From the IMG/VR virus record IMGVR_UViG_2671180637_000017, positions 1 to 13,572 of that record: a stretch of 13,572 nt of DNA, one strand, 5' to 3'. Shown piece after piece: positions 35 to 13,572 of the stretch (positions are counted from its first letter, which is position 1; every line of letters begins with the position of its first letter). Source of the stretch: a virus. Taxonomy: Duplodnaviria > Heunggongvirae > Uroviricota > Caudoviricetes. The notes below the pieces were generated by a model. That model made no database searches. It saw only the letters and a program-made list of their open reading frames with translations, and had not been told where the DNA came from. The translations under genes and the position numbers were made by a program.

Positions 35-922
35 TTAGGCCTGTGTCCATATTACGTGGGTAGGATCATACGTCGTGTCACCACAAATCCACGGCACATT
101 TACAGCACTGCCACCATGACACTGCGCGTTAAACACAGTGAGGTCAGCACGAAACTGCTTCAGCATGGCTGTAAACAGCGCAGGTTGCTGTGCGTGGGTG
201 GCGGCGCTCATGTCAAACTCTCCCTGCATCCAGCACACCGCCAGCAACACATTTTTCGGGTTCTTCTGTAATGCAGCTTTAGTGCGCGCAATCAGGTCCT
301 GATATAACGGTTTACCCACCCCCCAGCGCGCCGAATCCTGGCTGGCCCCCGCGTCCGCACTGAATGTCCCCTCCGCGCCCTGGGTGAATGCCGAACCACC
401 ACGACAGCATGGTACCAGCAGGATCCCCGCGTTATTCGGGATATACGGGAGCAGTTTTTTGGCAATATGTAAGCCCTGGCCGACACAGCCGTACTGCCCT
501 TTGCTCAGGTCTGCCTTCGGATGATTCAGCGTACTCATATCCTGCACATCATGCAGACAGTGGTCAGCCGGGATGATGTCGTTATACGTACAACTCTCTC
601 CACCCGGAGTTACCGTGCTGCGGCGCGCCAGCTGTTTAATGCGCGGATCCGGAGCATCGTAAGAATCCGGTAACGGAAGCCCTTCACCGTAGGCCATGCC
701 GTTGGACTGTCCGGCAAGCACAACCACGTAGAACCAGTCCGGCTCAGTTGCACCACTGACGACCACATCACCTTCTGCTGCAATCGCCTGCATCAGGGTA
801 TAAGGGGTTATGGCCACCGGACTACCAAACGGCTGCCAGCCCTCTTTCAGTTTATGTGTCAGCTTTTCCGCAAGGTCTGACGGCGACGCCGCCCTGACAA
901 CATCATAGTATTTAAATGCCAT
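35..922 (-). CDS. Prophage esterase: DUF1737-like N-terminus fused to an SGNH/SASA-family (sialate O-acetylesterase-like, NanS-p-like) domain
   Basis: 295-aa ORF with the SGNH-type GQSN block (VVVLAGQSNGMAYGEG). Its position downstream of Q and the tRNA array matches where this esterase family sits in lambdoid and Stx-type prophages. Family call is from memory, not searched. Confidence 0.7.
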   Translation of the reverse strand: MAFKYYDVVRAASPSDLAEKLTHKLKEGWQPFGSPVAITPYTLMQAIAAEGDVVVSGATEPDWFYVVVLAGQSNGMAYGEGLPLPDSYDAPDPRIKQLARRSTVTPGGESCTYNDIIPADHCLHDVQDMSTLNHPKADLSKGQYGCVGQGLHIAKKLLPYIPNNAGILLVPCCRGGSAFTQGAEGTFSADAGASQDSARWGVGKPLYQDLIARTKAALQKNPKNVLLAVCWMQGEFDMSAATHAQQPALFTAMLKQFRADLTVFNAQCHGGSAVNVPWICGDTTYDPTHVIWTQA

Positions 923-1371
923 GAATCCTCCCGGCCGGGATAATATTGTGAGTAAAATGAGGAGCGGGCTGAAGTCCGGAAGTTACAGGACAATGGCAGA
1001 AGAGAGACAACAGTCCGCAATACGAAAAAGGCCGCGCTATTGCGCAGAGTGATTACTGTCGGATATTATTCGCCAGCTGAAATATTACTTCACGTTTTGT
1101 TGTTTATTCCTTGCCGCCCGCGTCTCCCTGCGCGGGCTTTTTTTGTCCATAAGAAAGCCCCTCCGGAGAGGGGCTGGAGAGTGGCGCTATGTGCCATTGC
1201 ATGGTGCCGGGTGCCTCCCGGTGAATTCAGTACCAGCACCTGAATCCGCGATTATCCCATATACCTACTCGCTGATTGCCCCTCCGCACAGGTGGATTCA
1301 CCATGCCAGTTTCTTTTAACAAACTCCCCGCAAAACAGACAACTGTCAACCGTCTGAATTGTGAGACATTT

Positions 1372-1577: not shown

Positions 1578-1653
1578 TGGTGGCCCTTGCTGGATTTGAA
1601 CCAGCGACCTGGCGATTATGAGTCGCTCGCTCTCACCACTGAGCTAAAGGGCC
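1578..1653 (-). tRNA. tRNA with CAU anticodon, ileX/ileZ-like tRNA-Ile2 (lysidine type) or Met
   Basis: 76 nt with encoded CCA: acceptor GGCCCTT/AAGGGCC, D-stem GCTC/GAGC, anticodon loop CTCATAA, T-loop TTCAAAT. It is the Q-proximal tRNA, as ileZ is in Stx/lambdoid prophages. Confidence 0.8.
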
Positions 1654-1836: not shown

Positions 1837-1865
1837 AATATATGCCTTTCAATCTACTTTTGCAA
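1837..1865 (-). promoter_or_regulatory. PR'-like late promoter with a downstream -10-like pause element (candidate qut region)
   Basis: Minus strand TTGCAA (plus 1860-1865), 17-bp spacer, TATATT (plus 1837-1842). The -35 overlaps the 3' end of the Q ORF. The predicted start is near 1830, followed by TGATATT (about 1819-1825) resembling a sigma70-dependent pause element. Confidence 0.5.
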
Positions 1866-2538
1866 CACTTTGCTTTGAAAATGCCGCCTTTTGTTTTGAA
1901 CGTGTTCTCATTACAAATAATAAAGCCTCACTATCCAGTCGGTGAAAAATGTGTTTCATTGCAACCCAGTGACGAGTAAATGTTTTGGACCAGTTTTTAG
2001 TTGTCACTCCCGCCAGTAATGCCAGCTCCTGATATTCATAACCTTCCCCACCAAAAAGTTCTGCTTTTACTGCCTGCGCCGCCAGCCAGATTAATTTTTT
2101 CAGGCGTTCCTGCGTTTTCCCAGCAATTTTTCTGGTACCGGATTGAGTATTAAATTCATTCCACGCCCACTGTGTTATCGCGATCTGATATTCCCAACAA
2201 ATACTCCCGCTGTAACACCACAACAACCAGGCTTTATGATGTTCTTCAAGAGACAGAACAGCCCGCCGCCACGATGATGTCAAAAACTCAACCGGACTGA
2301 CGAGAGGAATTGACGCCCCCTTCGCCAGCGATTGCTTTCCCGGGATTGGTGGATTATCCCGCGTTATCATTTTTCCAGTCACTTCATCGCGGTACCGGAT
2401 TTTTTTACGCCTGTAACGCCCTGTATCAAACATGGCATTCTCCTGCCAGGCCTCAAGCTGCCCTTTTGTTGATCCACTCAAATCGGCGGTGGCAATCATG
2501 AGTTGCTCACGAACAAACTGTAAATACTGGTTATTCAT
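1849..2538 (-). CDS. Late-gene antitermination protein Q-like
   Basis: 229-aa ORF immediately downstream of rusA with an ATGA start/stop overlap, followed by a PR'-like promoter, short terminator and tRNA array. The call rests mainly on synteny; sequence family not verified. Confidence 0.5.
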   Translation of the reverse strand: MNNQYLQFVREQLMIATADLSGSTKGQLEAWQENAMFDTGRYRRKKIRYRDEVTGKMITRDNPPIPGKQSLAKGASIPLVSPVEFLTSSWRRAVLSLEEHHKAWLLWCYSGSICWEYQIAITQWAWNEFNTQSGTRKIAGKTQERLKKLIWLAAQAVKAELFGGEGYEYQELALLAGVTTKNWSKTFTRHWVAMKHIFHRLDSEALLFVMRTRSKQKAAFSKQSVAKVD

Positions 2539-2894
2539 GCATACTCCAGTTCTGTGATTTTTATCCCCAACCGCCCACCAGGAACAAGCTGACCGCGCAC
2601 AATATTAATTTCATCAAACTGCTCGTCGTCTATGAGCAGCCCCGCATGCGTCAGTACATCCAGTGGTGCCTTCAGGATATTGTCCAGGTCACGACGGCGC
2701 TTATCCGGTGGCTCTGCAATAATTTCTATTGCCGGCCTTCCGGACAGGTTTAATTTCAGTTGCTGCTGGCGAACAATAAGCGCCACATCACGGCGATAAC
2801 GCTCACCGACTTTTGATACAAAATATGTGCTGCCACGGCGTCGCCAGTAAGTGTTCACCGTCGGCGGGTAAGGTAAAACCAAATCTATGAGCAT
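2535..2894 (-). CDS. rusA: Holliday junction resolvase RusA
   Basis: 119-aa protein with the conserved RusA core (PDKRRRDLDNILKAPLDVLTHAGLLIDDEQ) and a GGRL motif near the C-terminus; similar in length and motifs to E. coli RusA as recalled. Confidence 0.85.
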   Translation of the reverse strand: MLIDLVLPYPPTVNTYWRRRGSTYFVSKVGERYRRDVALIVRQQQLKLNLSGRPAIEIIAEPPDKRRRDLDNILKAPLDVLTHAGLLIDDEQFDEINIVRGQLVPGGRLGIKITELEYA

Positions 2895-2906: not shown

Positions 2907-3956
2907 TTACCCAAGCACGCCAGTTGCAAAGGCGTGATCAAGAAAACGAAAAATTAAATCAACCTGAGAACCATGCTTTTCTTCGAACGCCAGCGGATCC
3001 GCATGAAGCTCGTTGTGATGCTCCCGACACAGCGGTAGCGTGAAAATATCGTGAGATTTTGTCCCCATTCCGCCCTGACCATGACCAATCAGGTGATGGG
3101 GATCGTCGGCTGGCTTACCACAACACGCACACGGCTGTGTCTTCACCCAGCGTGTGTATTTCTCGTTAACCCAGCGGCGACGTTTAGGTCGTTTCATGAA
3201 AGATTCCGGAGACTCAGGATCAACGGCAATGCTGACCACCGTCTTTTCCTGTGGTGGGTTCTGTTGCTGGTGGGCGTGAGGCAGCGGCGCAAGATTTTTT
3301 GTGCGCTGTTTCAGTATGCTGGTGGCGGTCTGCTCTCCCGGTACGATGTCGCTTTCACGGTACATTGAGCGAATTTTTTCCGCACGCAACCCCAGCGAAC
3401 GACGTAATACCGCTTCCGGTAGCGCGTCCGCCACCTGATTGCGGACCGCCCACCAGGATAATTCAGCCAGCGATAATTCCCGTTCCTGCGAGCCATTCAT
3501 TGCATGGCGTATGACGTCAATCATCCATGCAGACAGGTTTTGGTGAGCAAGTTGCCCGAGTGATTCGGAGGTCTGGTCGCGCAGCTGGTTGTCGCAGTGC
3601 CAGCACAACACCATTGCGCCGGTACCATAACGGTGAATGACGGTTTCACTGTGGTGATAATCACCGTGTGGCCACTGGCAGGATTTAACATGGCGCAGTA
3701 ACCAGTCAGACAATGCGCCAGCGCCACCAGCAGCACGAATCACTCGTTCGTCGCTGAAAAATGGCAGTAATGATTTATCCTCCGCCAGCGGCTGGCGAAC
3801 GGCAGGAACGACCCCGGACGGCAGATTACGCATGCTTTTCGGTTCCGGCTCCACCAGTACCCGGGTATTGTGGAATACCGGCATGGATTCACGGCCCGGC
3901 TTAACGATCACCAGCCCGAGTTCCGGTACCAGAACAGGTCGAAGTAATACCCGCAC
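2907..3956 (-). CDS. DUF968-like lambdoid prophage protein (YdfU-like) with C-terminal HNH-like Cys/His motif
   Basis: 349-aa ORF; C-terminus CACCGKPADDPHHLIGHGQGGMGTKSHDIFTLPLCREHHNELH is Cys/His-rich like HNH/zinc-finger nucleases. Sits in the nin-like position upstream of rusA. Family call from memory. Confidence 0.55.
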   Translation of the reverse strand: MRVLLRPVLVPELGLVIVKPGRESMPVFHNTRVLVEPEPKSMRNLPSGVVPAVRQPLAEDKSLLPFFSDERVIRAAGGAGALSDWLLRHVKSCQWPHGDYHHSETVIHRYGTGAMVLCWHCDNQLRDQTSESLGQLAHQNLSAWMIDVIRHAMNGSQERELSLAELSWWAVRNQVADALPEAVLRRSLGLRAEKIRSMYRESDIVPGEQTATSILKQRTKNLAPLPHAHQQQNPPQEKTVVSIAVDPESPESFMKRPKRRRWVNEKYTRWVKTQPCACCGKPADDPHHLIGHGQGGMGTKSHDIFTLPLCREHHNELHADPLAFEEKHGSQVDLIFRFLDHAFATGVLG

Positions 3957-4694: not shown

Positions 4695-4850
4695 TTACTC
4701 CTCAGGTTCGTAAGCTGTGAAGACAGCGACCTCCGTCTGGCCGGTTCGGATTCGTACCTCGCAGAGGTCTTTCCTCGTTACCAGTGCCGTCACTATGACG
4801 GTTAAACAGATGACGATCAGGGCGATTAACATCGCCTTTTGCTGCTTCAT
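4695..4850 (-). CDS. hok: Hok-family type I toxin (51 aa), HokD/RelF-like
   Basis: MKQQKAMLIALIVICLTVIVTALVTRKDLCEVRIRTGQTEVAVFTAYEPEE: one transmembrane helix plus the conserved Hok C-terminus. Matches chromosomal HokD as I recall it; not verified by search. Confidence 0.85.
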   Translation of the reverse strand: MKQQKAMLIALIVICLTVIVTALVTRKDLCEVRIRTGQTEVAVFTAYEPEE

Positions 4851-4907
4851 AGCCTGCTTCTCCTTGCCTTTCGGCACGTAAGAGGCTAACCTAGATTTGC
4901 CGTTCAT
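4695..4907 (-). CDS. mok-like in-frame N-terminally extended reading frame over hok
   Basis: In-frame ATG at 4905-4907 with GAGG about 10 nt upstream, giving a 70-aa frame that shares the hok stop, as described for mok frames of chromosomal hok loci. Confidence 0.35.
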   Translation of the reverse strand: MNGKSRLASYVPKGKEKQAMKQQKAMLIALIVICLTVIVTALVTRKDLCEVRIRTGQTEVAVFTAYEPEE

Positions 4908-4958
4908 AGATTGAGCCTCAGATTAATGTTAAGCGTCTTGCAGGACGCGTAATGTTAA
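4899..4958 (+). ncRNA. Candidate sok-like antisense RNA
   Basis: Plus-strand TTGCCT (4864-4869), 17 bp, TAACCT (4887-4892) predicts a start near 4899. The transcript would be antisense to the mok start and SD and ends at hairpin GCGTC-TTGCAG-GACGC followed by GTAATGTT. Ends are predicted, not measured. Confidence 0.3.
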
Positions 4959-5446
4959 CTGGGGCTTTTCTCTATCTGCCGTTGGTGTTCATGCCTGAGA
5001 CAGATAGCCTCAAGCACCCGCAGCCATTCTACTTAACTCCCGTCACCTCGCCAATATGAAATCAGTCAGAAAGGCGATCCATAAGAACAACAGCAAGGCA
5101 ATAAATTGCCATTACAGCAGCAATAGCCAGCGCACATTTGAGAACCAGCACCACAACCTCCTGTATTGGACGTACACCAGTCCTGATAAATATGAGGCTG
5201 TCTCGTCAGTGATTCAATACAACTATTGGGTATAGTTTCTGTGATTTTGTTCTGTAGAAATGGAACACAACAACCAGTCACCACCAGCACTTCTTTAAAT
5301 ACGCCAAGTCCGACGCAAGCTAACCTTCTAGGCCGCTTTGAGCGAAGAGCGGACGCTCGCATCTGTCCCAACACACTGAGGGCTTCACGAACACCTAGGT
5401 GTACTCGTCAACTGGGAAAAAGTCAGATTATCTGCGTAAGTTTCAG

Positions 5447-5475
5447 CGTAAAAATTGGGCACTATAAAAGTGCCC
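5447..5475 (-). terminator. Rho-independent terminator closing the KAP NTPase island transcript
   Basis: Minus strand GGGCAC-TTTTATA-GTGCCC stem-loop followed by AATTTTTAC, 24 nt past the stop of the 713-aa ORF. Confidence 0.5.
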
Positions 5476-5498
5476 AAACTGTAGAAAAATACATAATG

Positions 5499-7640
5499 CT
5501 ATGTATCTGAGCCAAACATAGAGCGCCGCCTTGTTATTTTATAATAAGTGGGATTTTCATTATCCACCTCAAAATCAGAGAAGAAGTGGTTATCTCTTAA
5601 TGCTGTTAATAAACTTTGATTAGTTGAATCAACTTCAATTTTAGGTTTGCCTCGCCCCAAAATTTTACTGAACTCCGATAAACCAAGCAGATCAAGATAC
5701 TCTTTGCAAGTCGTCTTACTCAAATCCTTACCCGGCAACAAAGCGATTAGCAGTGCTATTTTATTCTGCATATTCAGTCCCTCTGCGACAAACAGGTTTT
5801 TTAGTAACGGTTCAGAAACATCATTAGGACTTGCTATCAATGCTGATATATCCTGTATTGCTCGACTCAAGATGAGCGACTGAGTAGAGGTTCCCCAAGT
5901 TTTATAAGATGACGTCAAGATTAGAAGTTCATCTGGTTTAAAATTATTTTCTAAAATATAGTCATTAACGACCTGAGAGTAATTCTTACTATAAATAGCC
6001 AACGGAGTTTTAACAAACTCGAGTAGCTTAACTTTCAAATCATCATCAACTTTCCAAGAAAGTATTGATATAGCCTCATCCAAAATAAAGTTATCAATCG
6101 TCATTAATTCAACGTATGCCCTGATATTCTTATGAATATAATAGGAAAGTTGCTCTGAATAGTTATCTCGTATGAAATTAAGTGGCGCAACATTCATACG
6201 AATAATATTTTTATCCACTAATATTTTGAACTTATCACTCGCGATATTACTAGCGCTAAAGGATGCTTTACAAATAATATTTAGTGAGCAAATTAATTTT
6301 TCATATTTATCATTTGATAAATCATTACAGATAACAATCGATTTAAATAATTTACCTTTAAGCTCGTTATCAATATTAATATTTTGAAAATTCAGGTCTA
6401 CATCAGTTCTATTGATAAATTCGATAAGTGAGTCATCCAGTCCATCAACATGTTCAAAATAAGAGACAATATTTTCCTCAGAGCACACTGCTCTATCTTT
6501 ATCCAACAAAGATGACCATAAAGATTCGCTCTCAACCTCACTCAGAGATGTCACGAAAGTTTGCAAAGCGTTTATATACTGGCCTTTTTGTTCATCAGAT
6601 ATTCCCTCATTATTAAGAACGGATAAAACAATGGATTCATCATCCACGATTGAACCATCACAACTAGATAAAACCATATCCAGATAGTCCCTAATATGGT
6701 TATTAACATAACTAGCCAAGGGAGAATCAGGTTGTGACATCACTAGTGTATAGTTCTTATGGCGAATATCATCTTCACTATTAAGCGTGTAAACCTTACT
6801 CAGCATTAAGGTCAGGTTGGAAAAATTAATATCATAAAGTGAATGCTGGTAAACCGCATCAAAGAGTACTTTATTTGCGTTTTCAAATTTAATACTGACA
6901 AAAGAGACGTTAAGCAACTTAAAACCACTAATTAATTTGTCAACCTTCGGTTCTGATATTGCTAAATAACCTGCCGAATCAGAGATGTAATCAGTCAGAC
7001 AATCATCAATATTAATGGCCTCGATGGCGTCATTGGCAGAATAATAAAACGTGCCTATAGAGTAGAGTTTAACCCAATCAGCAGAAAATTCACTCTCTGT
7101 CAGCGCATAAGAAAAAAACTCAGGCCACTGTGTATTTAATCGATTAATGAAGACAGGCTGAGCCCTCTCAGTTTCAAAGTAACCACGAATAAACTCAACT
7201 CTTCTATCTTTTCTTAGTTGTTTGAATAAACGTTTTATTAAGTTTACCTGGGCTGGCGTTTGAAGCAGATAAGCTAATAAATCAAAATTAAGCGCCTCTT
7301 CCTGTTCAAAATCCACTTCTCGAAGGCGGGCAACGACCAGCTTGGGGTTCTTGAGTTGATAAGTGAACTCTTTGCCTTTTTGATCGGTAATGCTGCGTAA
7401 AAACATCTTATCAATTCGACTCAGGCTATTTTCATAAAAATAGGTCATATAGTCGGTATAGGTTTCATCAATATAACCATCACGAATAAGGTATTTAAGC
7501 AAGTCAAAATACTCACTGCTTTTTATTTCATTAAAGTCTCTTTCCTCTCCAATTTCATTGGTATAGGTGAGTTTAAATATTTCATCAATGTTTTCTCTAG
7601 TTATTACTTCTTTAAGTCTTTTGTTTCTAGAATCAACCAA
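5499..7640 (-). CDS. Large alpha-helical protein, probably the C-terminal portion of the KAP NTPase gene
   Basis: 713-aa ORF in AT-rich DNA whose track start is a TTG. By hand translation the same frame stays open a further 75 codons upstream to 7865 (KKEIEAINDEILNSSQEVD...), where it meets the upstream ORF at an A6 run. Confidence 0.6.
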   Translation of the reverse strand: MVDSRNKRLKEVITRENIDEIFKLTYTNEIGEERDFNEIKSSEYFDLLKYLIRDGYIDETYTDYMTYFYENSLSRIDKMFLRSITDQKGKEFTYQLKNPKLVVARLREVDFEQEEALNFDLLAYLLQTPAQVNLIKRLFKQLRKDRRVEFIRGYFETERAQPVFINRLNTQWPEFFSYALTESEFSADWVKLYSIGTFYYSANDAIEAINIDDCLTDYISDSAGYLAISEPKVDKLISGFKLLNVSFVSIKFENANKVLFDAVYQHSLYDINFSNLTLMLSKVYTLNSEDDIRHKNYTLVMSQPDSPLASYVNNHIRDYLDMVLSSCDGSIVDDESIVLSVLNNEGISDEQKGQYINALQTFVTSLSEVESESLWSSLLDKDRAVCSEENIVSYFEHVDGLDDSLIEFINRTDVDLNFQNINIDNELKGKLFKSIVICNDLSNDKYEKLICSLNIICKASFSASNIASDKFKILVDKNIIRMNVAPLNFIRDNYSEQLSYYIHKNIRAYVELMTIDNFILDEAISILSWKVDDDLKVKLLEFVKTPLAIYSKNYSQVVNDYILENNFKPDELLILTSSYKTWGTSTQSLILSRAIQDISALIASPNDVSEPLLKNLFVAEGLNMQNKIALLIALLPGKDLSKTTCKEYLDLLGLSEFSKILGRGKPKIEVDSTNQSLLTALRDNHFFSDFEVDNENPTYYKITRRRSMFGSDT

Positions 7641-7735
7641 ACTTTCTCTTGATCTTGATATAAGCTCATTAATTTCTTCTATTTTACCATTAAATTTATT
7701 TTCAACACTTTCTTTTCTAGCCGCCCTTCTCTTTG

Positions 7736-9130
7736 CTATATCAGCTTTCTCAGCCTGATTATAGTGAGGATGATTATTATATCTAGATAATTCCTTATCG
7801 TATATAGCATCAACCTCCTGACTAGAGTTGAGTATTTCATCATTGATTGCCTCAATCTCTTTTTTCTATCTCTAATATCTTTTTCTATTTTCTTTATTTC
7901 TTCAATAATAAGGTTGTCTTTTTCACTAAATATGGTATAAACCATACCTTGATTAAGTTGCAACTCACTAAAATCTCTTGGGAAAATATTCTTATAGGCA
8001 ATAATGGCCAACATTTTATTACAGTCAAGTTCTGTCGTGTTTAATTTGTTATAATAAATTTGAAATTCGTTATAAATATTCTTCAATATTCTCATATCAT
8101 CAATATATAAAGACATCCCTTGTAGAAATCTTTCATTGAACAACTTGAGAATACCACCACCATCAAAATGTGTGATAAACTGATCGTAAGAGTTAGAACT
8201 ATCAACAACAGGAATAACTGGAATGATATAATCAAAGAATTTGGTTCTATCCTTCGAAATGAAGATATCATCACGAAGCAAGTAAATAAAACGTAACGTC
8301 GATTTCTTGTGCCCTGCTGTGTCCCGTTGAATATTAACCAGTCTGTTAACCTCATGAAGACGTTCAAAGATGTTATTACTATTAAAACGGTCCATGTCTT
8401 CAAAAACAATGGCATCAGCATCAACGTTCTCGAAAAGGTACAATACTTCATTTAAATATCTATCGAAATAAGACTCGTTACTTTCTTCAAAAATCTCTAT
8501 TTCATTACCCTGTAAATTTATTTTCTTAAGAACATTACGATTCTTTTGGATTTTTATTAACTTGTAAATGAAAATACAAGATAGGATAGTACATATAAAC
8601 CCACTAATTAAAAGCGTATCGTATTTAGTTGATAATGTAAGTAGTGTCTTTATATTACCTTCAGATAAAAGTGAAACAAACTTTTCCCACTTATTAAATA
8701 GCGTGATATGTAGTATCATGGCGATAAATAACACCGTAAAGATGGTGTTTATCACAATGTTGTTAGTTTTTATTTTTTTCTTTACTTTAAAATGTGTCTG
8801 GGGAATATCATCAGCATTAATTTGGTGAATTAACTGGTTAAGAACTTTACCTTCTAACGCGGTTTCATTTATATCTTTACTTGGTTCATTAGTTTCAGCT
8901 TCCTCAATCGATCTGAAATGAGCAAGTGAGATATGAACAAACTTTATATTTGAATGACTTTTCTTATAGGATTCGATAAGACTACTTTTTCCTGCGCTAT
9001 ATTGCCCTGATATCGCAACATTTTTTAGATCGTTATTGGCAAAAACAAAATCTATCGCATTTTTATATACACCCAGCTCAACATCGCTGAACGGAGTTAA
9101 CTTTTGAAATTTATAGCTATCATCACTCAT
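7736..9130 (-). CDS. KAP-family P-loop NTPase (N-terminal NTPase module with membrane insert)
   Basis: Walker A GQYSAGKSS (plus 8984-9007), two hydrophobic helices (IVINTIFTVLFIAMILHITLF and TLLISGFICTILSCIFIYKLI), then Walker B-like AIVFEDMDRF. A transmembrane insert between Walker A and B is the hallmark of KAP NTPases. SD GGGAAGGGA lies 5 nt before the ATG. The last ~45 codons look like out-of-frame read-through. Confidence 0.8.
   Translation of the reverse strand: MSDDSYKFQKLTPFSDVELGVYKNAIDFVFANNDLKNVAISGQYSAGKSSLIESYKKSHSNIKFVHISLAHFRSIEEAETNEPSKDINETALEGKVLNQLIHQINADDIPQTHFKVKKKIKTNNIVINTIFTVLFIAMILHITLFNKWEKFVSLLSEGNIKTLLTLSTKYDTLLISGFICTILSCIFIYKLIKIQKNRNVLKKINLQGNEIEIFEESNESYFDRYLNEVLYLFENVDADAIVFEDMDRFNSNNIFERLHEVNRLVNIQRDTAGHKKSTLRFIYLLRDDIFISKDRTKFFDYIIPVIPVVDSSNSYDQFITHFDGGGILKLFNERFLQGMSLYIDDMRILKNIYNEFQIYYNKLNTTELDCNKMLAIIAYKNIFPRDFSELQLNQGMVYTIFSEKDNLIIEEIKKIEKDIRDRKKRLRQSMMKYSTLVRRLMLYTIRNYLDIIIILTIIRLRKLI
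7859..7865 (-). other. Candidate -1 frameshift site A_AAA_AAG (or 1-nt indel in an A6 run) joining the two KAP ORFs
   Basis: The upstream frame reads AGA AAA AAG (R K K). A -1 slip or one extra A yields KKEIEAIN... continuous with the 713-aa ORF. The heptamer is the same as the dnaX slippery site. Confidence 0.4.
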
Positions 9131-9211
9131 TGATATCCCTTCCCAATCTTCACCGAGAGAGCTGGCTTTCGGAGTTAATCAAACAAAATCATGCAGATAA
9201 AATTTCGCCTT

Positions 9212-9220
9212 ATTATAGCA
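9212..9220 (-). promoter_or_regulatory. Extended -10 promoter (TGCTATAAT) for the KAP NTPase gene
   Basis: Minus strand TGCTATAAT with no good -35, about 80 nt upstream of the KAP ATG. Confidence 0.4.
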
Positions 9221-9529
9221 GACACAACTGCAAAGATTAGCTAAAGCCTCGTTGTTTTCTTCATCTATCCCTATAATTTTACACTACAGTTAGCACTTAC
9301 TATACCTGAAAGCTTTGCTCGTAAAGAGCACAATCGCAAGTCAGCAAAGCACGACTTTGCAATCGAGCGCCGCTAAAACAGTGCTGAATCGCTACGACTT
9401 AGGCAGCCATCTTATCGGTTGGCAGATAATTTCTAACTTCCGCTTCTGGCACAAAGCGGACAACCACGATAGCTCTATCCTGTGCCACAAAATGTCAATT
9501 CACATCTTAACTAATGCATTTTAATCTCG

Positions 9530-9952
9530 TCACTTTAATAAATACCGAACATTCCCCTGATAAAACGACAATATGCGCTGCATAACTTCGCTTTTACGAC
9601 ACTCAGTACAAATTATATTATGATGCCTGTCGTAACGACGTATTTCTCCATCAGGTAATGACCAGATAAGGTCCGGATCAACCGCAGATGGTTTCTTCAG
9701 CTTTGCCCTTGAGAGCTTTTTACGGGCATTTTGCCAGTCCTTACGCGCCTGTTCAGACGGGAATAACCCGTAACCAGAATTGTATACATCACCGCTGGCA
9801 ACCAGCTCTCTCGCGAGAACGCTCATCAGATATCTTGTCGCACCTGTCTTGACTTCCAGTTGTCGTAACGTCTCACGCCCACTCTGGCGTACGAGTTCAA
9901 CAACCTGCCCTTTAATTTTTTCTCGCTCTTCTTGTGTAAATACTTTTGCCAC
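9530..9952 (-). CDS. Hypothetical prophage protein (140 aa) downstream of the replication initiator
   Basis: Clean ORF with typical GC, 40 bp after the initiator stop; basic and Cys/His-containing (RYDRHHNIICTECRK). No family recognised. Confidence 0.5.
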   Translation of the reverse strand: MAKVFTQEEREKIKGQVVELVRQSGRETLRQLEVKTGATRYLMSVLARELVASGDVYNSGYGLFPSEQARKDWQNARKKLSRAKLKKPSAVDPDLIWSLPDGEIRRYDRHHNIICTECRKSEVMQRILSFYQGNVRYLLK

Positions 9953-9992: not shown

Positions 9993-11069
9993 TTACCCCC
10001 TGAAGCCCGGCGGAATTTCGGTATCCGGTTCAGAAATATGATTCACACAACGCTGGTTGTTCGTGCCGTTTACCGGGAGCAACCAGGGGTTTTCAAAATT
10101 CCGGTCCGGTCCAAAAAACGTCGTCGCTCGCTGAACAAATTCCGTTCCCGTTTTCCCGGTAACCGCCAGGTATCTTGCGTAACGCCTCACGCCATCCAGC
10201 ATGGCCTCTGGTGGCACCCCCTCGCGTAATCTGGCCTTCCAGGCACTGAAAGCGGATTTCTTCGGGTTTGCCCCGGCACGCAACGGGTACTCCCGCCAGA
10301 TCTGTTCGAACACATCCGGATAATCCACTCGTCCCACAGGCTGCCCGGTGTTTTCCGGGACTACCCGATCGGCTTCCCGCTGAATGGCGGAATCGGCTTC
10401 AGGCTGCTGCAGTTGGTGTGATTGCTCCGGCCTTGCGGTCATCACCTGCTGCACAGCGCCCGAATCGGCTTTCAGCGCATACGCTGAATCGGCTTCCGGT
10501 GTCGTGCCTGCTGGCTGACCAGGGTTGACGGTCTGAACATCCCCTGCCTGGTTCGTGGCGTTTTTTACGCCATGAACCATAGTATTTTGATCTTCTTGAT
10601 CTGTATCTTTATCTGTATCTTTATCTGTCGTGACTCGTCGTGACATGTGCGTGACATTTCGTGACGCGTCGTGACAATCGCCATTTTGTTCCCGCTTTCT
10701 TTCCCTCTCACGCTGCGCCCTCTTGCGCTCTGCCGGAGATTTTGCGGTTTGCGAAATATTGCCGTTGTCCTCTTTAAGCACCTGGCGTTTTTCCCATCCA
10801 GTGATTAAATCACCATCAAGTACCCGCCCCTGCATCGTCTGCAAAATTGAATCAATTACCTCTTCTGTCACGTCGAGCGCACTTGCCAAATCTTCTGTCG
10901 TGACATCAATGTGACCTCGCGTGACATTTCGTGACGCGCTCACCAGGAGGTGGATATACACTGCCATCACTGTTGCAATTGGCTGCCCTGACACCCTGGC
11001 AATTGTTCGCCACTTAGGGTCATTTGGCATGTCATGCCATAATCTGAGCCAGGCGTTAGCCATACTCAC
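9993..11069 (-). CDS. Replication initiator, lambda O-like / replisome-organizer type
   Basis: 358 aa: N-terminal winged-helix-like region (AWLRLWHDMPNDPKWRTIA...), low-complexity acidic/basic linker (DKDTDKDTD, ERKRAQRERERKRE) and a C-terminal domain. Iteron arrays lie inside the coding sequence, as ori-lambda lies inside O. Confidence 0.6.
   Translation of the reverse strand: MSMANAWLRLWHDMPNDPKWRTIARVSGQPIATVMAVYIHLLVSASRNVTRGHIDVTTEDLASALDVTEEVIDSILQTMQGRVLDGDLITGWEKRQVLKEDNGNISQTAKSPAERKRAQRERERKREQNGDCHDASRNVTHMSRRVTTDKDTDKDTDQEDQNTMVHGVKNATNQAGDVQTVNPGQPAGTTPEADSAYALKADSGAVQQVMTARPEQSHQLQQPEADSAIQREADRVVPENTGQPVGRVDYPDVFEQIWREYPLRAGANPKKSAFSAWKARLREGVPPEAMLDGVRRYARYLAVTGKTGTEFVQRATTFFGPDRNFENPWLLPVNGTNNQRCVNHISEPDTEIPPGFRG
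10588..10675. repeat. Origin-like element: two GATC sites, tandem ATCTGTATCTTT repeats, then five CGTGAC iterons phased at 10-11 bp
   Basis: CGTGAC starts at 10629, 10639, 10650, 10660 and 10670 (spacings 10, 11, 10, 10). Immediately preceded by about 2.5 copies of ATCTGTATCTTT from 10599 and GATC at 10588-10591 and 10598-10601. Confidence 0.55.
10867..10938. repeat. Second iteron cluster (CGTGAC/TGTGAC at 10-11 bp phase, with an inverted GTCACG)
   Basis: CGTGAC at 10899, 10920, 10930 and TGTGAC at 10910; inverted copy GTCACG at 10867-10872. The 20-mer GCGTGACATTTCGTGACGCG occurs in both clusters (near 10649 and near 10919). Confidence 0.45.
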
Positions 11070-11134: not shown

Positions 11135-11560
11135 TCAATGTACTGCCACAGCATTTCCTGCCGGGCCACCACGGTTCATCTGATTGAAACCGGCGATTGC
11201 CACTGCGACAAAATCATCAGCGTCTCTCACCAATCGCTCCCGCGTCTCCACCAGCTCCCGAAAATAAGCTGAACTGTGGCTGCGCATTCTGGCCACCAGC
11301 AAAGGTGGCATTGCCTTTTCGATCGCTGGCAACAACGCCTTAATTTTTTCAACAGCATCAGGGGTGTCTTTCTCTACCCAGCGGAAAATTTTCTGGGTAT
11401 TGCGAGCCAGGGCTTCCGGATGGCTGTCGTCGTACAGTTCAGGAAACGTCATACCCAACTCAAAATAAGCCTGGGTTATTCCAGCTGCCGGAACTTTTTC
11501 GCCATCAGGACGCGCCCAGGCATTCATCGCCATGCGGATGTGTTCATGCTTGATTTTCAT
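11135..11560 (-). CDS. YdaT-like protein (CII-like position in Rac-type immunity regions)
   Basis: 141 aa starting MKIKHEHI, ATGA overlap with the cro-like stop. Resembles E. coli Rac YdaT in length, N-terminus and position as recalled. Confidence 0.5.
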   Translation of the reverse strand: MKIKHEHIRMAMNAWARPDGEKVPAAGITQAYFELGMTFPELYDDSHPEALARNTQKIFRWVEKDTPDAVEKIKALLPAIEKAMPPLLVARMRSHSSAYFRELVETRERLVRDADDFVAVAIAGFNQMNRGGPAGNAVAVH

Positions 11561-11811
11561 GAATCAACTCCCATCAGCTTTTTCGTAGTAGTTTTATTCC
11601 TGCCAATAGTTAAAATTGCATCGGCAGAAAATAATCCGTTTGATGCAAGAGCGATTTTTTCAGCGTAATTTGTTTCGCCGGTATATTCTGTGCGAGGCAA
11701 TTTTCCGTTATCCATCCATTTATAGATTGCTCTTTGGCTGACACCACAAACGTCGGCCACAACAGCAACGCGAACAGTTTTGATTACATCTTCAAGTGTT
11801 TTCTGGTTCAT
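11557..11811 (-). CDS. Cro/YdaS-like HTH transcriptional regulator
   Basis: 84 aa from the ATG at 11811 (MNQKTLED...), which has SD GAGGGTGAT 1 nt upstream; the longer track ORF to 11883 has no RBS. HTH segment DVCGVSQRAIYKWMDNGKLP. Divergent from the cI-like gene. Confidence 0.65.
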   Translation of the reverse strand: MNQKTLEDVIKTVRVAVVADVCGVSQRAIYKWMDNGKLPRTEYTGETNYAEKIALASNGLFSADAILTIGRNKTTTKKLMGVDS

Positions 11812-11890
11812 ATCACCCTCACAATGTGAACTTTGAGTACATGCTATAACAGAACTGACAGTACATTCAAGAGCGAATATCATTGAACTT
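11812..11890. promoter_or_regulatory. OR-like divergent promoter/operator region between cro-like and cI-like genes
   Basis: 79-bp intergenic with AGTACAT motifs (GAGTACATG near 11835-11843, CAGTACATT near 11859-11867). Leftward TTGAAT...TATAGC for cro; rightward CTGACA (11854-11859), 18 bp, TATCAT (11878-11883) placing the start at the cI ATG. Confidence 0.45.
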
Positions 11891-12310
11891 ATGGTTCATG
11901 AAGATAAAGCGCGTAAAGAGTTCGCCAGTAGGCTTGCGCTAGCCTGTGAAAACGCTGGTTATGAACAACATGGAAGGCAGGCAGAAATTGCCCGTCGAAT
12001 GAAATTAACACCAAAAGCGGTTAGCAAATGGTTTAATGGCGAAACAATTCCTCGCCGGGAGAAATTAAGGGAATTAGCAACACTAATAGGAACAACACCA
12101 ACCTATCTTTTGGGAGAGGATACAGAAGAAAGTGGACAGGTACGTTTCTATCAGGAGTTAAATCCAAGACAAAAAATCATCATTGACCTTCTGGACGAGC
12201 TCCCTGACAGTGAGACAGATGAACTTTTAAAAACTCTTGAAGAGAAAAAACAGAAGTACAATGCAATTTACGAAGAGTTAGCACGAAAGAAAAAACAAAA
12301 AGCCTCTTAA
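11891..12310 (+). CDS. cI-like prophage repressor (HTH XRE family)
   Basis: 139 aa with a classic XRE HTH (QAEIARRMKLTPKAVSKWFNGETIPRREKLRELATLIG) and a charged helical C-terminus. Divergent from the cro-like gene. Confidence 0.75.
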   Translation: MVHEDKARKEFASRLALACENAGYEQHGRQAEIARRMKLTPKAVSKWFNGETIPRREKLRELATLIGTTPTYLLGEDTEESGQVRFYQELNPRQKIIIDLLDELPDSETDELLKTLEEKKQKYNAIYEELARKKKQKAS

Positions 12311-12526: not shown

Positions 12527-12763
12527 ATGACGGCAGGGTTCAACTTTAATAACTATGCAGCAGGTTTTTGTTCCGCTACCCCGGCGTTAAGGGGAAATGA
12601 GGTCAGCATGGATACTATCGATCTTGGCAACAGCGAATCTCTGGTATGTGGCGTGTTCCCCAACCAGGACGGTACGTTCACCGCGATGACGTATACCAAA
12701 AGCAAAACGTTTAAAACCGAAAATGGTGCCCGTCGCTGGCTGGAAAGAAACTCAGGTGAGTGA
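12527..12763 (+). CDS. Small prophage early protein (YdaF-like); alternative start at 12608 gives a 51-aa product
   Basis: 78-aa ORF. The internal ATG at 12608 has a better SD (TGAGGT) and its product MDTIDLGNSESLVCGVFPNQDGTFTAMTYTKSKTF... resembles Rac YdaF as recalled. Confidence 0.5.
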   Translation: MTAGFNFNNYAAGFCSATPALRGNEVSMDTIDLGNSESLVCGVFPNQDGTFTAMTYTKSKTFKTENGARRWLERNSGE

Positions 12764-13141: not shown

Positions 13142-13572
13142 TAGCTAATCAACAAAGCTAAGGTTAGTAATTAAGGAGTTCTCCACGGGTGAGGTGGAGT
13201 GCGTGCGCCGGACACGGGTGAGCATCCGGCATTGACAGTTTACTGAAAGGATATTTCCCTGAAAAGTCAGACCATAACGCGAAAGCGCACGGCGAGGTAG
13301 CTGGTTCATAGATAGCCTGTCGTTAAATTTTCGTCGACCGTGCGCTTCCGGTTGTGGCAATCCGCGAAATGGCGCGGCGGTAAGTATGGCGGGGTTATTC
13401 CTTCCCCCGTTGAGGACACCGGGTTGTCAGGTTGACCATACGCTTAAGTGACAACCCCGCTGCAACGCCCTCTGTTATCAATTTTCTGGTGACGTTTGGC
13501 GGTATCAGTTTTACTCCGTGACTGCTCTGCCGCCCTTTTTAAAGTGAATTTTGTGATGCGGTGAATGCGGCT

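What the first reader, a model, noticed from the sequence alone, without database searches (positions are those of the whole stretch)
5447..9221. Self-contained AT-rich island encoding a KAP-family NTPase, inserted between the replication and nin/hok modules
The DNA between about 5450 and 9300 is visibly much more AT-rich than the flanking phage genes (by eye, not computed), which suggests separate acquisition. It carries its own extended -10 promoter (9212-9220), a good SD and its own terminator (5447-5475). The cargo is a KAP-type P-loop NTPase followed by roughly 750 aa of helical sequence with no catalytic motif I can recognise. It occupies the accessory slot between replication and nin genes where lambdoid prophages often carry host-benefit or anti-phage cargo. 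A membrane-anchored NTPase with a large sensor-like C-terminus in a prophage is a plausible abortive-infection or exclusion candidate of unassigned type. The island ends carry only a weak imperfect inverted repeat (AACTGTAG at 5477-5484, CTACAGTT at 9284-9291), which I do not consider significant.
Basis: partly seen in the sequence, partly recalled or inferred. Interest (0 to 1): 0.85.

Follow-up and report, generated by a model that had tools for sequence, protein, structure and literature searches.

The report
Frameshifted Tmn anti-phage gene cassette
The AT-rich island is a mobile single-gene cassette encoding a divergent member of Tmn, an already characterised membrane ATPase that defends bacteria against phages, and in this contig the gene is broken by a one-base deletion.

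Summary
Window 5362-9438 is 33.7% GC against about 50% and 48% in the flanks. It carries its own extended -10 promoter, Shine-Dalgarno sequence and terminator, and sits between the replication genes and hok/DUF968/RusA/Q of a Qin-like (DicF-bearing) prophage. The cargo is not of unassigned type. [quoted passage not shown] A profile aligns it end to end with a plasmid 'anti-phage transmembrane ATPase' (hhalign probability 100%, 1125 columns). Tmn was reported in 2020 and characterised mechanistically in a 2026 preprint: a decamer triggered by phage RIIB, with ATP turnover, Mg2+ export and plasmolysis. Pairwise identity to the plasmid Tmn is only 26%, so this is a divergent member. I found no evidence that this subtype has been tested. 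In the window the gene is split by an A7-to-A6 deletion at 7860-7865; all 31 comparable complete E. coli genomes carry the extra base. The same cassette, about 5331-9460, recurs in Klebsiella and Serratia. It ends in two related 22-26-nt palindromes that also bound cassettes in the Z region of P2-like phages. The finding is ordinary as a gene. The cassette ends deserve follow-up.

The parts
9435..9460 (-). Upstream boundary repeat 'U': TCCGCTTTGTGCCAGAAGCGGAAGTT, an imperfect palindrome of the form TCCGCT-N10-AGCGGA.
   Evidence: Pattern search finds 2 matches in the window against 0.01 expected. It folds as a 7-bp hairpin, z = -3.0. Homology to prophages lacking the cassette resumes at 9439. 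Homology to the Klebsiella and Serratia copies ends at 9462/9461.
9212..9220 (-). Extended -10 promoter element TGCTATAAT.
   Evidence: Read directly. It is identical in the E. coli, Klebsiella and two Serratia copies of the cassette. It was not found by the two-hexamer scan because the -35 is poor.
9136..9144 (-). Shine-Dalgarno-like GGGAAGGGA, ending five bases before the ATG at 9130.
   Evidence: Read directly. Conserved in L001 and L006.
7736..9130 (-). ORF1, 464 aa. Residues 1-424 are the authentic N-terminus (YobI-type P-loop NTPase with two inserted transmembrane helices). The last 40 residues are out of frame.
   Evidence: PADLOC Tmn model 9.2e-57 for aa 1-424. This exact 464-aa product is on record as CTY60806.1 / WP_261310675.1.
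8984..9007 (-). Walker A motif GQYSAGKS (aa 42-49).
   Evidence: G42, G47 and K48 are invariant in 74 homologues.
8537..8767 (-). Two transmembrane helices (about aa 122-146 and 170-198) inserted between Walker A and Walker B.
   Evidence: Kyte-Doolittle peaks of 2.29 and 2.16. AlphaFold helices at 122-143 and 170-198.
8396..8413 (-). Walker B motif AIVFED (aa 240-245).
   Evidence: F243, E244, D245, D247 and R248 are invariant.
7860..7865 (-). Frameshift site: an A6 run on the coding strand where intact alleles have A7. It creates an in-frame A_AAA_AAG heptamer.
   Evidence: Pairwise comparison with L001 and L002. All 31 full matches in complete E. coli genomes span 302 bases for the 301-base query. 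Frames shown.
5499..7859 (-). Remainder of the gene in the -1 frame (aa 425-1210 plus stop): a coiled-coil 'proximal arm', a small alpha/beta unit and an alpha-solenoid 'distal arm'.
   Evidence: Translation rejoins to a 1210-aa protein with 3 substitutions against P0002. The AlphaFold model is all-helical from about aa 540. The hhalign alignment to plasmid Tmn extends to the C-terminus.
5447..5477 (-). Intrinsic terminator: stem-loop TTGGGCAC-TTTTATA-GTGCCCAA followed by TTTTT.
   Evidence: The stem is conserved in Klebsiella and Serratia copies.
5331..5353 (-). Downstream boundary repeat 'D': TCCGCTCTTCGCTCAAAGCGGCC, the same TCCGCT-N10-AGCGG form.
   Evidence: Homology to prophages lacking the cassette ends at 5354-5361. 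Homology to Klebsiella and Serratia copies ends at 5348/5333.

Best explanation
The island is a roughly 4.1-kb single-gene mobile cassette carrying a Tmn-type (YobI-family) anti-phage defence gene with its own promoter and terminator. It is lodged in the variable slot between DUF977 and hok/sok of a Qin-like prophage.

**Shown here.** The intact protein (1210 aa) has a cytoplasmic P-loop NTPase split by a two-helix membrane hairpin. A coiled-coil arm and a long alpha-solenoid arm follow.

**Inferred by homology with characterised Tmn (about 26% identity).**
- Protomers assemble into a membrane-anchored oligomer.
- The solenoid arms bind a phage protein made early in infection.
- Binding switches on ATP hydrolysis, which drives ion (Mg2+) export and plasmolysis and depletes ATP.
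- Phage development stalls, and ATP-sensing defences may be triggered.
- Which phages and which trigger this variant recognises is unknown. The arms are the diverged part.

**State in this contig.** A one-base contraction of an A7 run truncates the protein after residue 424. The arms are then not made, and the system is most likely inactive. At most, rare -1 ribosomal slippage on the resulting A_AAA_AAG heptamer could restore the exact wild-type sequence. This last point is inference and was not tested.
For: **Family and architecture.**
- Pfam YobI-ATPase, 410.9 bits against a cut-off of 27, aa 22-398.
- PADLOC Tmn model, 1e-66.
- BLASTP to the plasmid 'anti-phage transmembrane ATPase' WP_231828659.1: 26% identity over aa 4-612, E 4e-55. 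That plasmid protein matches the Tmn model over its full length at 2055 bits.
- A profile of 74 homologues against that protein: probability 100%, E 1e-61, 1125 aligned columns spanning 5-1196 and 20-1252.
- Walker A, Walker B and the two inserted transmembrane helices.
- AlphaFold model with mean pLDDT 85, showing a coiled coil at 404-502 and an all-helical region from about 540 to 1180.
- The best PDB fold matches are ARM/HEAT proteins and AAA+/ORC ATPases, all weak.
- Residues whose mutation abolished defence in Tmn-25 (Walker A G/K, Y262, D276/R279, N297, K325/F326, R374) align with G47/K48, Y231, D245/R248, N266, K297/F298 and R347. All of these are invariant among 74 homologues.

**Mechanism of the family.** PMC13001434 and earlier work.

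**Frameshift.**

**Mobility and self-containment.**
Against: - Identity to any experimentally tested Tmn is low (26% in the N-terminal half), and BLAST finds nothing in the last 600 residues.
- The C-terminal 786 aa alone gives no PADLOC hit.
- No member of this 1210-aa subtype is known to me to have been tested. I could not place it in the published clades because no supplementary tables are held.
- The mechanism comes from a preprint on one plasmid variant, with an 11.6 Angstrom map.
- pTM of my model is only 0.49, so the relative placement of domains is uncertain.
- The frameshift could be an assembly error, in which case the gene is intact.
Confidence: 0.8

Rival explanations
1. The frameshift is a sequencing or assembly artefact. 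The strain carries an intact, active Tmn gene.
For: - The difference is a single base in a homopolymer.
- All 31 comparable complete E. coli genomes carry the extra base, that is A7.
- The rest of the gene shows no further damage: 3 substitutions against P0002.
Against: - The same 464-aa truncated product, with the same out-of-frame tail, is on record on another allele background (T194 instead of I194). It occurs in 5 contigs, including a 5.19-Mb chromosome.
- Other copies are also inactivated, by IS66, by IS5 plus IS903, or by a different frameshift. That is 4 of the 32 near-full-length matches. Loss of this gene is therefore common.
Confidence: 0.2
2. The A6 allele is a functional low-expression or switchable state. 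Either -1 ribosomal frameshifting on A_AAA_AAG yields some full-length Tmn, or slippage between A6 and A7 works as an on/off switch for a costly defence gene.
For: - The heptamer is in the correct phase, and a -1 slip gives exactly the wild-type sequence DRKK-EIEAIN.
- A_AAA_AAG is the dnaX slippery site in E. coli (established knowledge).
- The same contraction is seen on two allele backgrounds.
Against: - I saw no Shine-Dalgarno-like stimulator upstream, and only a 5-bp AT-rich stem downstream.
- A7 is short for a contingency tract.
- The intact allele needs no frameshift.
- This gene was not tested for frameshifting.
Confidence: 0.07
3. The protein is a YobI-family membrane NTPase with a role other than phage defence, for example prophage maintenance or a host-benefit function. 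Its resemblance to Tmn would then reflect shared ancestry only.
For: - The C-terminal two thirds are too diverged for pairwise detection.
- NCBIfam and PHROGs have no specific model.
- No experiment exists on this subtype.
Against: - Homology to Tmn is full-length and collinear.
- Catalytic-site residues needed for defence are invariant.
- The genomic settings are typical of defence cargo: a prophage variable slot, a P4-like island next to HNH and methyltransferase genes, and sporadic occurrence in 32 of 5426 E. coli genomes with frequent inactivation.
- The published family survey treats all PADLOC-detected clades as Tmn and found defence in a distant clade VIII member.
Confidence: 0.1

Closest known systems
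Tmn (transmembrane NTPase) defence system. Reported by Gao et al. 2020 as cited in PMC13001434 and in 10.1101/2022.08.21.504612. Mechanism in Wu et al. 2026, PMC13001434.
   Same: - A single large polypeptide with a YobI-type P-loop NTPase and two transmembrane helices inserted between Walker A and B.
- A coiled-coil proximal arm and an alpha-solenoid distal arm.
- Collinear over about 1125 columns.
- Essential NTPase residues conserved.
- Carried on mobile elements. The published tree includes a ring marking prophage association.
   Different: - 1210 aa, against about 1270 aa for the tested enterobacterial clades Ia and Ib.
- Only 26% identity to the plasmid (F/I-type) variant, with arms diverged beyond BLAST detection.
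- Prophage-borne on a 33% GC cassette with its own boundary repeats.
- Target phages and trigger are unknown.
- Frameshifted in this contig.
Pfam PF20693 YobI-like P-loop NTPase (the family of Bacillus subtilis YobI)
   Same: Full-length match of the domain model, 1-363 of 363. RefSeq names the intact protein 'YobI family P-loop NTPase'.
   Different: The Pfam family defines only the N-terminal domain and says nothing about function.
KAP family P-loop NTPases (Pfam PF07693; for example PifA of the F plasmid)
   Same: A membrane-associated P-loop NTPase with helical repeat extensions and links to phage exclusion. Tmn was originally called a KAP NTPase.
   Different: No match to the KAP_NTPase model at E <= 1. 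The 2026 paper treats YobI and KAP as separate families.
Avs / STAND anti-phage NTPases
   Same: The same logic: a repeat-containing sensor arm binds a phage protein and switches on an NTPase-driven oligomeric effector. Avs3 appears among the weak fold matches.
   Different: A different NTPase class. Avs has no membrane insertion and carries a separate effector domain. In Tmn the membrane assembly itself is the effector.
Left and right 'inverted repeats' flanking variable ORFs in the Z region of P2-like coliphages (GenBank AJ512681 and AJ512685; Nilsson, Karlsson and Haggard-Ljungquist 2004, paper not readable here)
   Same: The annotated left repeat (3-115) of P2-EC67 ends with TCCGCTCTGTGCCAGAAGTGGA-AGTT. 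The right repeat (1255-1345) begins with TCTGTTTTTCGCTCAAAGCTAAC. These are the same U and D sequences that bound the Tmn cassette.
   Different: Here they occur in a lambdoid (Qin-like) prophage slot, in a Klebsiella P4-like island and in a Serratia chromosome, and they bound a Tmn gene. I could not check what the 2004 paper claimed about mechanism.

Membership tests
Tmn defence system / YobI family | YobI-type P-loop NTPase domain with conserved Walker A and Walker B | tested here: met
   PF20693 at 8.3e-123, aa 22-398. GQYSAGKS at 42-49 and AIVFED at 240-245. These positions are invariant across 74 homologues.
Tmn defence system / YobI family | Two transmembrane helices inserted inside the P-loop domain | tested here: met
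   Hydrophobic windows at aa 122-148 and 170-195 lie between Walker A and B. AlphaFold helices at 122-143 and 170-198. No dedicated topology predictor was available.
Tmn defence system / YobI family | Match to the PADLOC Tmn model (PDLC02220) | tested here: met
   1e-66 at 223.7 bits, best stretch aa 9-439 on model positions 27-474 of 1273. Only about 35% of the model is covered by that stretch. PADLOC's own coverage rule could not be applied here.
Tmn defence system / YobI family | Full-length collinearity with a Tmn of the tested type, including the proximal and distal arms | tested here: met
   hhalign probability 100%, E 1e-61, 1125 columns, query 5-1196 against target 20-1252. The reference protein scores 2055 bits on the Tmn model.
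Tmn defence system / YobI family | Coiled-coil proximal arm plus alpha-solenoid (ARM/HEAT-like) distal arm | tested here: met
   In the AlphaFold model (pLDDT 85), long helices at 404-502 are followed by about 45 short helices from 540 to 1180. The top Foldseek PDB hits are ARM/HEAT proteins, but at E >= 1e-3. This rests on prediction only.
Tmn defence system / YobI family | Residues shown to be essential for defence in Tmn-25 | tested here: met
   Aligned equivalents G47/K48, Y231, D245/R248, N266, K297/F298 and R347 are invariant. The numbering offset of +2 between Tmn-25 and the L003 protein is my inference. The proximal-arm residues could not be mapped reliably.
Tmn defence system / YobI family | Uninterrupted open reading frame | tested here: not met
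   The A6 run at 7860-7865 shifts the frame. This concerns the allele in this contig, not the family assignment.
Tmn defence system / YobI family | Protection against phage; decameric membrane complex; trigger-dependent ATP turnover and Mg2+ export | not testable with these tools
   These need experiments. They are known only for other variants.
KAP family P-loop NTPase (PF07693) | Match to the KAP_NTPase domain model | tested here: not met
   The model is not among the Pfam hits at E <= 1.
Integron gene cassette (attC-bounded) | Boundary sites with paired R''/R' core sequences RYYYAAC and GTTRRRY, and a nearby IntI integrase | tested here: not met
   The conserved site ends in GTT, but the following bases do not fit RRRY. 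Upstream AAC is present in only about half of 15 composites, and consecutive sites do not pair as expected. No integrase was seen in the loci inspected.

The most novel reading that the evidence does not exclude
The two boundary palindromes (TCCGCT-N10-AGCGGA; 'U' upstream and 'D' downstream) may be the recombination sites of a cassette-exchange system that is integron-like but is not an integron.

Under this reading, the system moves self-expressed defence genes between several kinds of site:
- the Z region of P2-like phages;
- the DUF977-hok slot of Qin/Rac-like prophages;
- P4-like islands;
- chromosomal arrays in many Proteobacteria.

The recombinase is unidentified. The Tmn cassette would be one passenger.

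The break in identity falls inside U, between its left arm and GTGCCAG, and at the left arm of D. That placement is what a crossover in the spacer of a core site would produce.
Probability: 0.25. Interest if true: 0.7.

Novelty: new member of a known kind. Interest (0 to 1): 0.32.

Why it matters
**As a gene.** It adds little. Tmn is a named defence system with a proposed mechanism, and this exact protein is already in RefSeq as a YobI-family NTPase. The useful points are practical:
- It is a divergent Tmn whose sensor arms share no detectable pairwise similarity with tested variants. The repaired allele would therefore be a good probe of how arm sequence sets phage specificity.
- It is inactivated in this strain, so the strain should not be scored as Tmn-positive.

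**The cassette ends.** This is the more interesting lead. The same 4.1-kb unit, promoter and terminator included, sits between the same two palindromes in a lambdoid prophage, a Klebsiella island and Serratia chromosomes. The same palindromes separate other defence genes in P2-like prophages and form one-orientation arrays elsewhere. If a dedicated recombination mechanism is behind this, it would explain how prophage 'hotspots' exchange defence genes. Rousset et al. 2022 left that question open.

Tried and rejected
**Searches that found nothing useful.**
- PHROGs: no hit. NCBIfam: only noise.
- PDB by sequence: no hit at E <= 1.
- PDB by fold: only weak ARM/HEAT and AAA+ matches, and no Tmn structure.
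- tblastn against 50,697 phage records: no match.
- A 62-base query across the frameshift gave nothing, probably because of low-complexity masking. It was replaced by a 301-base query.
- No supplementary tables of the Tmn preprint are held, so the clade could not be assigned.
- Full-text search for the boundary sequence returned only unrelated primer coincidences.
- Nilsson et al. 2004 and Odegrip et al. 2006 are not held.

**Ideas considered for the boundary repeats and set aside.**
- Canonical integron attC: the core consensus and its pairing are not met.
- REP/BIME-type repeats: only 1-7 copies per E. coli genome, and a single orientation within arrays.
- Intrinsic terminators: no T tract follows.
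- Rfam families: nothing at these positions at gathering thresholds.

The 8-bp repeat is real but internal to the cassette, and is treated as chance.

Full report
**1. What is in the sequence**

A sliding GC profile shows a trough of 28-40% GC from about 5400 to 9400, against 45-58% on either side. Using boundaries defined by comparison (see section 5), the block 5362-9438 is 33.7% GC. The left flank is 50.3% and the right flank is 48.4%.

On the minus strand the block holds two long ORFs: 9130-7736 (464 aa) and 7640-5499 (713 aa from a TTG). Translating all three frames across 7560-7905 shows that the second frame is open from 7865 onward. The two frames meet at a run of six A residues (coding strand AGA AAA AAG AGA) at 7860-7865.

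- TGCTATAAT at 9220-9212, read directly.
- AAGGGA five bases before the ATG at 9130.
- A 9-pair stem-loop with a T tract at 5477-5447.

**2. The gene is a frameshifted copy of an otherwise intact gene**

- Megablast of 5300-9400 against 5,426 complete E. coli genomes finds 32 near-full-length matches at 99.7-99.9% identity. Most span 4102 bases for the 4101-base query.
- In strain 1-62 the region is annotated as one 1210-aa CDS, WP_001278661.1, 'YobI family P-loop NTPase'.
- Base-by-base comparison shows that the window lacks one A of an A7 run. It differs otherwise by three substitutions.
- A 301-base query around the site shows that all 31 full matches carry the extra base.
- Joining the two frames at the run gives a 1210-aa protein with three substitutions against P0002.
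- The truncated 464-aa product is on record for this 13,572-base contig (CTY60806.1). A second 464-aa protein with the same out-of-frame tail, but T194 instead of I194, occurs in five other contigs, including a 5.19-Mb chromosome. The same contraction therefore appears on two allele backgrounds. This argues for a real and recurrent slip, but does not prove it.
- Four of the 32 near-full-length copies are broken in other ways: IS66, IS5 plus IS903, a C-run deletion, and a three-piece annotation.
- The A6 allele places A_AAA_AAG in the zero frame. A -1 slip there would give DRKK-EIEAIN, which is the wild-type sequence. That heptamer is the dnaX slippery site (established knowledge). I saw no clear stimulatory elements, so I treat this only as a minor possibility.

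**3. What the protein is**

Sequence evidence:
- Pfam gives one strong hit, PF20693 YobI-ATPase: 8.3e-123, aa 22-398, full model. KAP_NTPase does not appear.
- PADLOC gives Tmn (PDLC02220) at 1e-66, best stretch aa 9-439.
- NCBIfam and PHROGs give nothing useful.
- tblastn against plasmids finds 629 records, mostly E. coli conjugative plasmids. The matches are about 28% identical over the first 400 residues, and several are annotated 'anti-phage transmembrane ATPase'.
- One such protein (L003, 1271 aa) matches the Tmn model end to end at 2055 bits. It aligns with the window protein at 26% identity over aa 4-612, E 4e-55.
- An exhaustive HMMER search of 1.84 billion representatives finds 4,742 clusters at E <= 0.001. 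The best 150 listed are 34-51% identical, and most of them match over nearly the full length (collected).
- A profile of 74 of these homologues aligns with the plasmid Tmn over 1125 columns, from 5-1196 to 20-1252, with probability 100% and E 1e-61. The diverged C-terminus is therefore homologous too.

Motifs and structure:
- Walker A (42-49) and Walker B (240-245) bracket two strongly hydrophobic segments.
- An AlphaFold model built on the 74-sequence alignment has mean pLDDT 85 and pTM 0.49. It shows:
  - a five-stranded P-loop core;
  - two long helices (122-143 and 170-198) inserted in that core;
  - a coiled coil at 404-502;
  - a small mixed unit;
  - a run of short helices to residue 1180.
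- Foldseek against the PDB returns only weak matches (E >= 1e-3), to ARM/HEAT-repeat proteins and AAA+/ORC ATPases. No solved relative exists by sequence.

**4. What is known about this family**

According to PMC13001434:
- Tmn is a YobI-family NTPase with two transmembrane helices inside the P-loop domain.
- It forms a decamer with proximal (coiled-coil) and distal (ARM/HEAT-like solenoid) arms.
- It is triggered by phage T2 RIIB binding to the arms.
- It then raises ATP turnover, exports Mg2+ and causes plasmolysis that arrests the phage.
- ATP depletion activates Gabija and Septu.
- The family has ten clades that differ mainly in the arms. Five variants gave different protection profiles.
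- Residues essential in Tmn-25 (Walker A G/K, Y262, D276/R279, N297, K325/F326, R374) correspond in my alignments to G47/K48, Y231, D245/R248, N266, K297/F298 and R347. All are invariant in the 74 homologues. The +2 numbering offset is my inference.

Earlier work called Tmn a KAP NTPase. An anti-Tmn phage protein is also known (PMC11846954).

The window protein is 1210 aa, whereas the tested enterobacterial clades have a median of about 1270 aa. I could not assign its clade.

**5. Context and mobility**

The window is the early-right region of a Qin-like prophage. Its features are:

| Feature | Coordinates and strand |
|---|---|
| DicF RNA | 13484-13535 (+) |
| DUF1391 (ydfA-like) | 12527-12763 (+) |
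| HTH repressor | 11891-12310 (+) |
| Cro-like HTH | 11557-11883 (-) |
| YdaT | 11135-11560 (-) |
| Replisome organiser | 9993-11069 (-) |
| DUF977 | 9530-9952 (-) |
| The island | about 5331-9460 (-) |
| sok | 4845-5019 (-) |
| hok | 4695-4907 (-) |
| DUF968 | 2907-3956 (-) |
| RusA | 2535-2894 (-) |
| Q antiterminator | 1849-2538 (-) |
| Two tRNAs | 1414-1487 and 1581-1653 (-) |
| STnc100 sRNA | 1145-1335 (-) |
| DUF1737/SASA esterase | 35-922 (-) |

Presence and absence at the slot:
- A query made of the two flanks shows many E. coli prophages with the same flanks but different content between them.
- UMNK88 has an 810-bp gene on the other strand. Strain A20 has only 218 bp.
- Homology to both breaks at window 5354-5361 and resumes at 9439.

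The same gene at 92-97% protein identity occurs elsewhere:
- in Klebsiella, in an island with a P4-type integrase, AlpA, an HNH protein and a methyltransferase;
- in Serratia liquefaciens, between ordinary chromosomal genes.

DNA homology to the window runs from 5348 or 5333 to 9462 or 9461. These are essentially the same ends. Promoter and terminator are conserved. GC is 33% inside these copies against 54-60% in most of the flanks, and 42% on the island side of the Klebsiella copy.

**6. The cassette ends**

On the gene strand the block starts with TCCGCTTTGTGCCAGAAGCGGA-AGTT (U) and ends with TCCGCTCTTCGCTCAAAGCGGCC (D). Both have the form TCCGCT-N10-AGCGG(A). There are 2 matches in the window against 0.01 expected. 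U folds as a hairpin (z = -3). D does not clearly fold.

Where identity breaks:
- Among the four contexts, identity begins inside U, after its left arm. The left-arm-plus-two-base stretches are TCCGCTTT, TCCGCTGA, TCTGCTTT and GTGGCTTT, and the shared GTGCCAGAAGCGGAAGTT follows.
- Identity fades after the left arm of D.
- Prophages without the cassette retain U-like and D-like sites around their own cargo.

Distribution of the motif:
- A scan of one genome per species for GCTNNGTGCCAGAAGCGGRAGTT gave 40 loci. About two thirds are Enterobacterales. The rest include alpha-, beta- and other gammaproteobacterial assemblies and one Actinomycetota MAG. By my estimate, less than one match is expected by chance.
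- Only one locus (Serratia oryzae) has Tmn behind the site.
- D often lies 16-19 nt upstream of U, forming a composite of about 66 nt.
- Several loci hold three to five composites in one orientation, 0.7-2 kb apart, with unrelated gene units between them.
- In E. coli the composite occurs in 1182 of 5426 genomes, at 1-7 copies.

Examples in other elements:
- In a P2-like prophage the variable locus between tail-fibre assembly and tail sheath reads U, gene, D-U, DUF3800 gene, D.
- In another strain a Hachiman HamB helicase and a PDC-S15 (FRG) gene are separated by a D-U composite.
- GenBank entries AJ512681 and AJ512685 (Z region of P2-EC48 and P2-EC67) annotate a 'left inverted repeat' that ends with U. 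In P2-EC67, the 'right inverted repeat' begins with D.

These repeats were therefore noticed around 2003-2004 in P2-like phages. The associated paper's title speaks of site-specific recombination, but I could not read it. The sites do not fit integron attC rules, and they are too rare and too uniformly oriented for REP elements. I found no recombinase. An IS110-family transposase gene lies next to the truncated D in Klebsiella. Short-homology recombination by phage Rad52-like or RecET functions remains an equally good explanation.

**7. Verdict**

The gene is a divergent, untested-subtype member of the known Tmn family, and it is disrupted in this contig.
- Interest as a gene is low to moderate.
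- The conserved cassette ends, shared with the P2 Z region and with arrays in other Proteobacteria, are the part that merits follow-up.

Noticed in passing
window 9435-9460 and 5331-5353; L006 5670-5695; L009 5670-5695, 9778-9800, 9820-9845; L052 7300-7321, 9004-9067, 10481-10503; L055 93-118 and 1256-1278: Two related palindromes (TCCGCT-N10-AGCGGA) bound the Tmn cassette in E. coli, Klebsiella and Serratia. They also bound other cassettes in the Z region of P2-like prophages. Elsewhere they form 66-nt composites arranged in one-orientation arrays in many Proteobacteria. GenBank entries of Nilsson et al. annotate the same sequences as left and right inverted repeats.
   Followed up: partly
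window 7860-7865; proteins P0271 and P0273: The same A7-to-A6 frameshift, with an identical 40-residue out-of-frame tail, occurs on a second allele background (T194) in five other E. coli contigs. This suggests a recurrent slip at this homopolymer, or a recurrent sequencing error.
   Followed up: partly
hits H10, H11, H15 (L002 6200-9831) and H20: Four of the 32 near-full-length E. coli copies are disrupted in other ways: an IS66 insertion, IS5 plus IS903 insertions, a C-run deletion near the 3' end, and an annotation in three pieces. The gene is therefore often lost.
   Followed up: partly
L004 3576-4385 (E. coli UMNK88), at the slot equivalent to window 5362-9438: A different cargo occupies the same prophage slot: a 269-aa protein on the opposite strand with no Pfam or PADLOC match. 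It may be another accessory or defence candidate.
   Followed up: partly
L053 5690-10646 (E. coli ECCHD184): A Hachiman HamB helicase gene and a PDC-S15 (FRG-domain) candidate defence gene are separated by one D-U composite, next to IS fragments and e14-like prophage remnants.
   Followed up: partly
L006 9784-11051 (Klebsiella): An IS110-family transposase gene lies immediately beyond a truncated D repeat. IS110-type elements are known to target palindromic repeats, so D may be such a target.
   Followed up: no
window 13484-13535 (+), 4845-5019 (-), 1414-1487 and 1581-1653 (-), 1145-1335 (-): Rfam finds DicF RNA, a sok antitoxin RNA next to hok, two phage tRNAs downstream of Q, and the STnc100 sRNA. 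Together these identify the element as a Qin-like lambdoid prophage.
   Followed up: no
window 35-922 (-): A DUF1737 plus SASA (sialate O-acetylesterase-like) protein lies downstream of Q and the tRNAs.
   Followed up: no
L009 5650-5670 and 9800-9825; L055 85-92 and 1279-1290: The motif TCTGACAG, or its complement, sits just outside U and D in both the Serratia chromosomal site and the P2-EC67 repeats. The conserved boundary element may therefore extend beyond the 22-26-nt palindromes.
   Followed up: no
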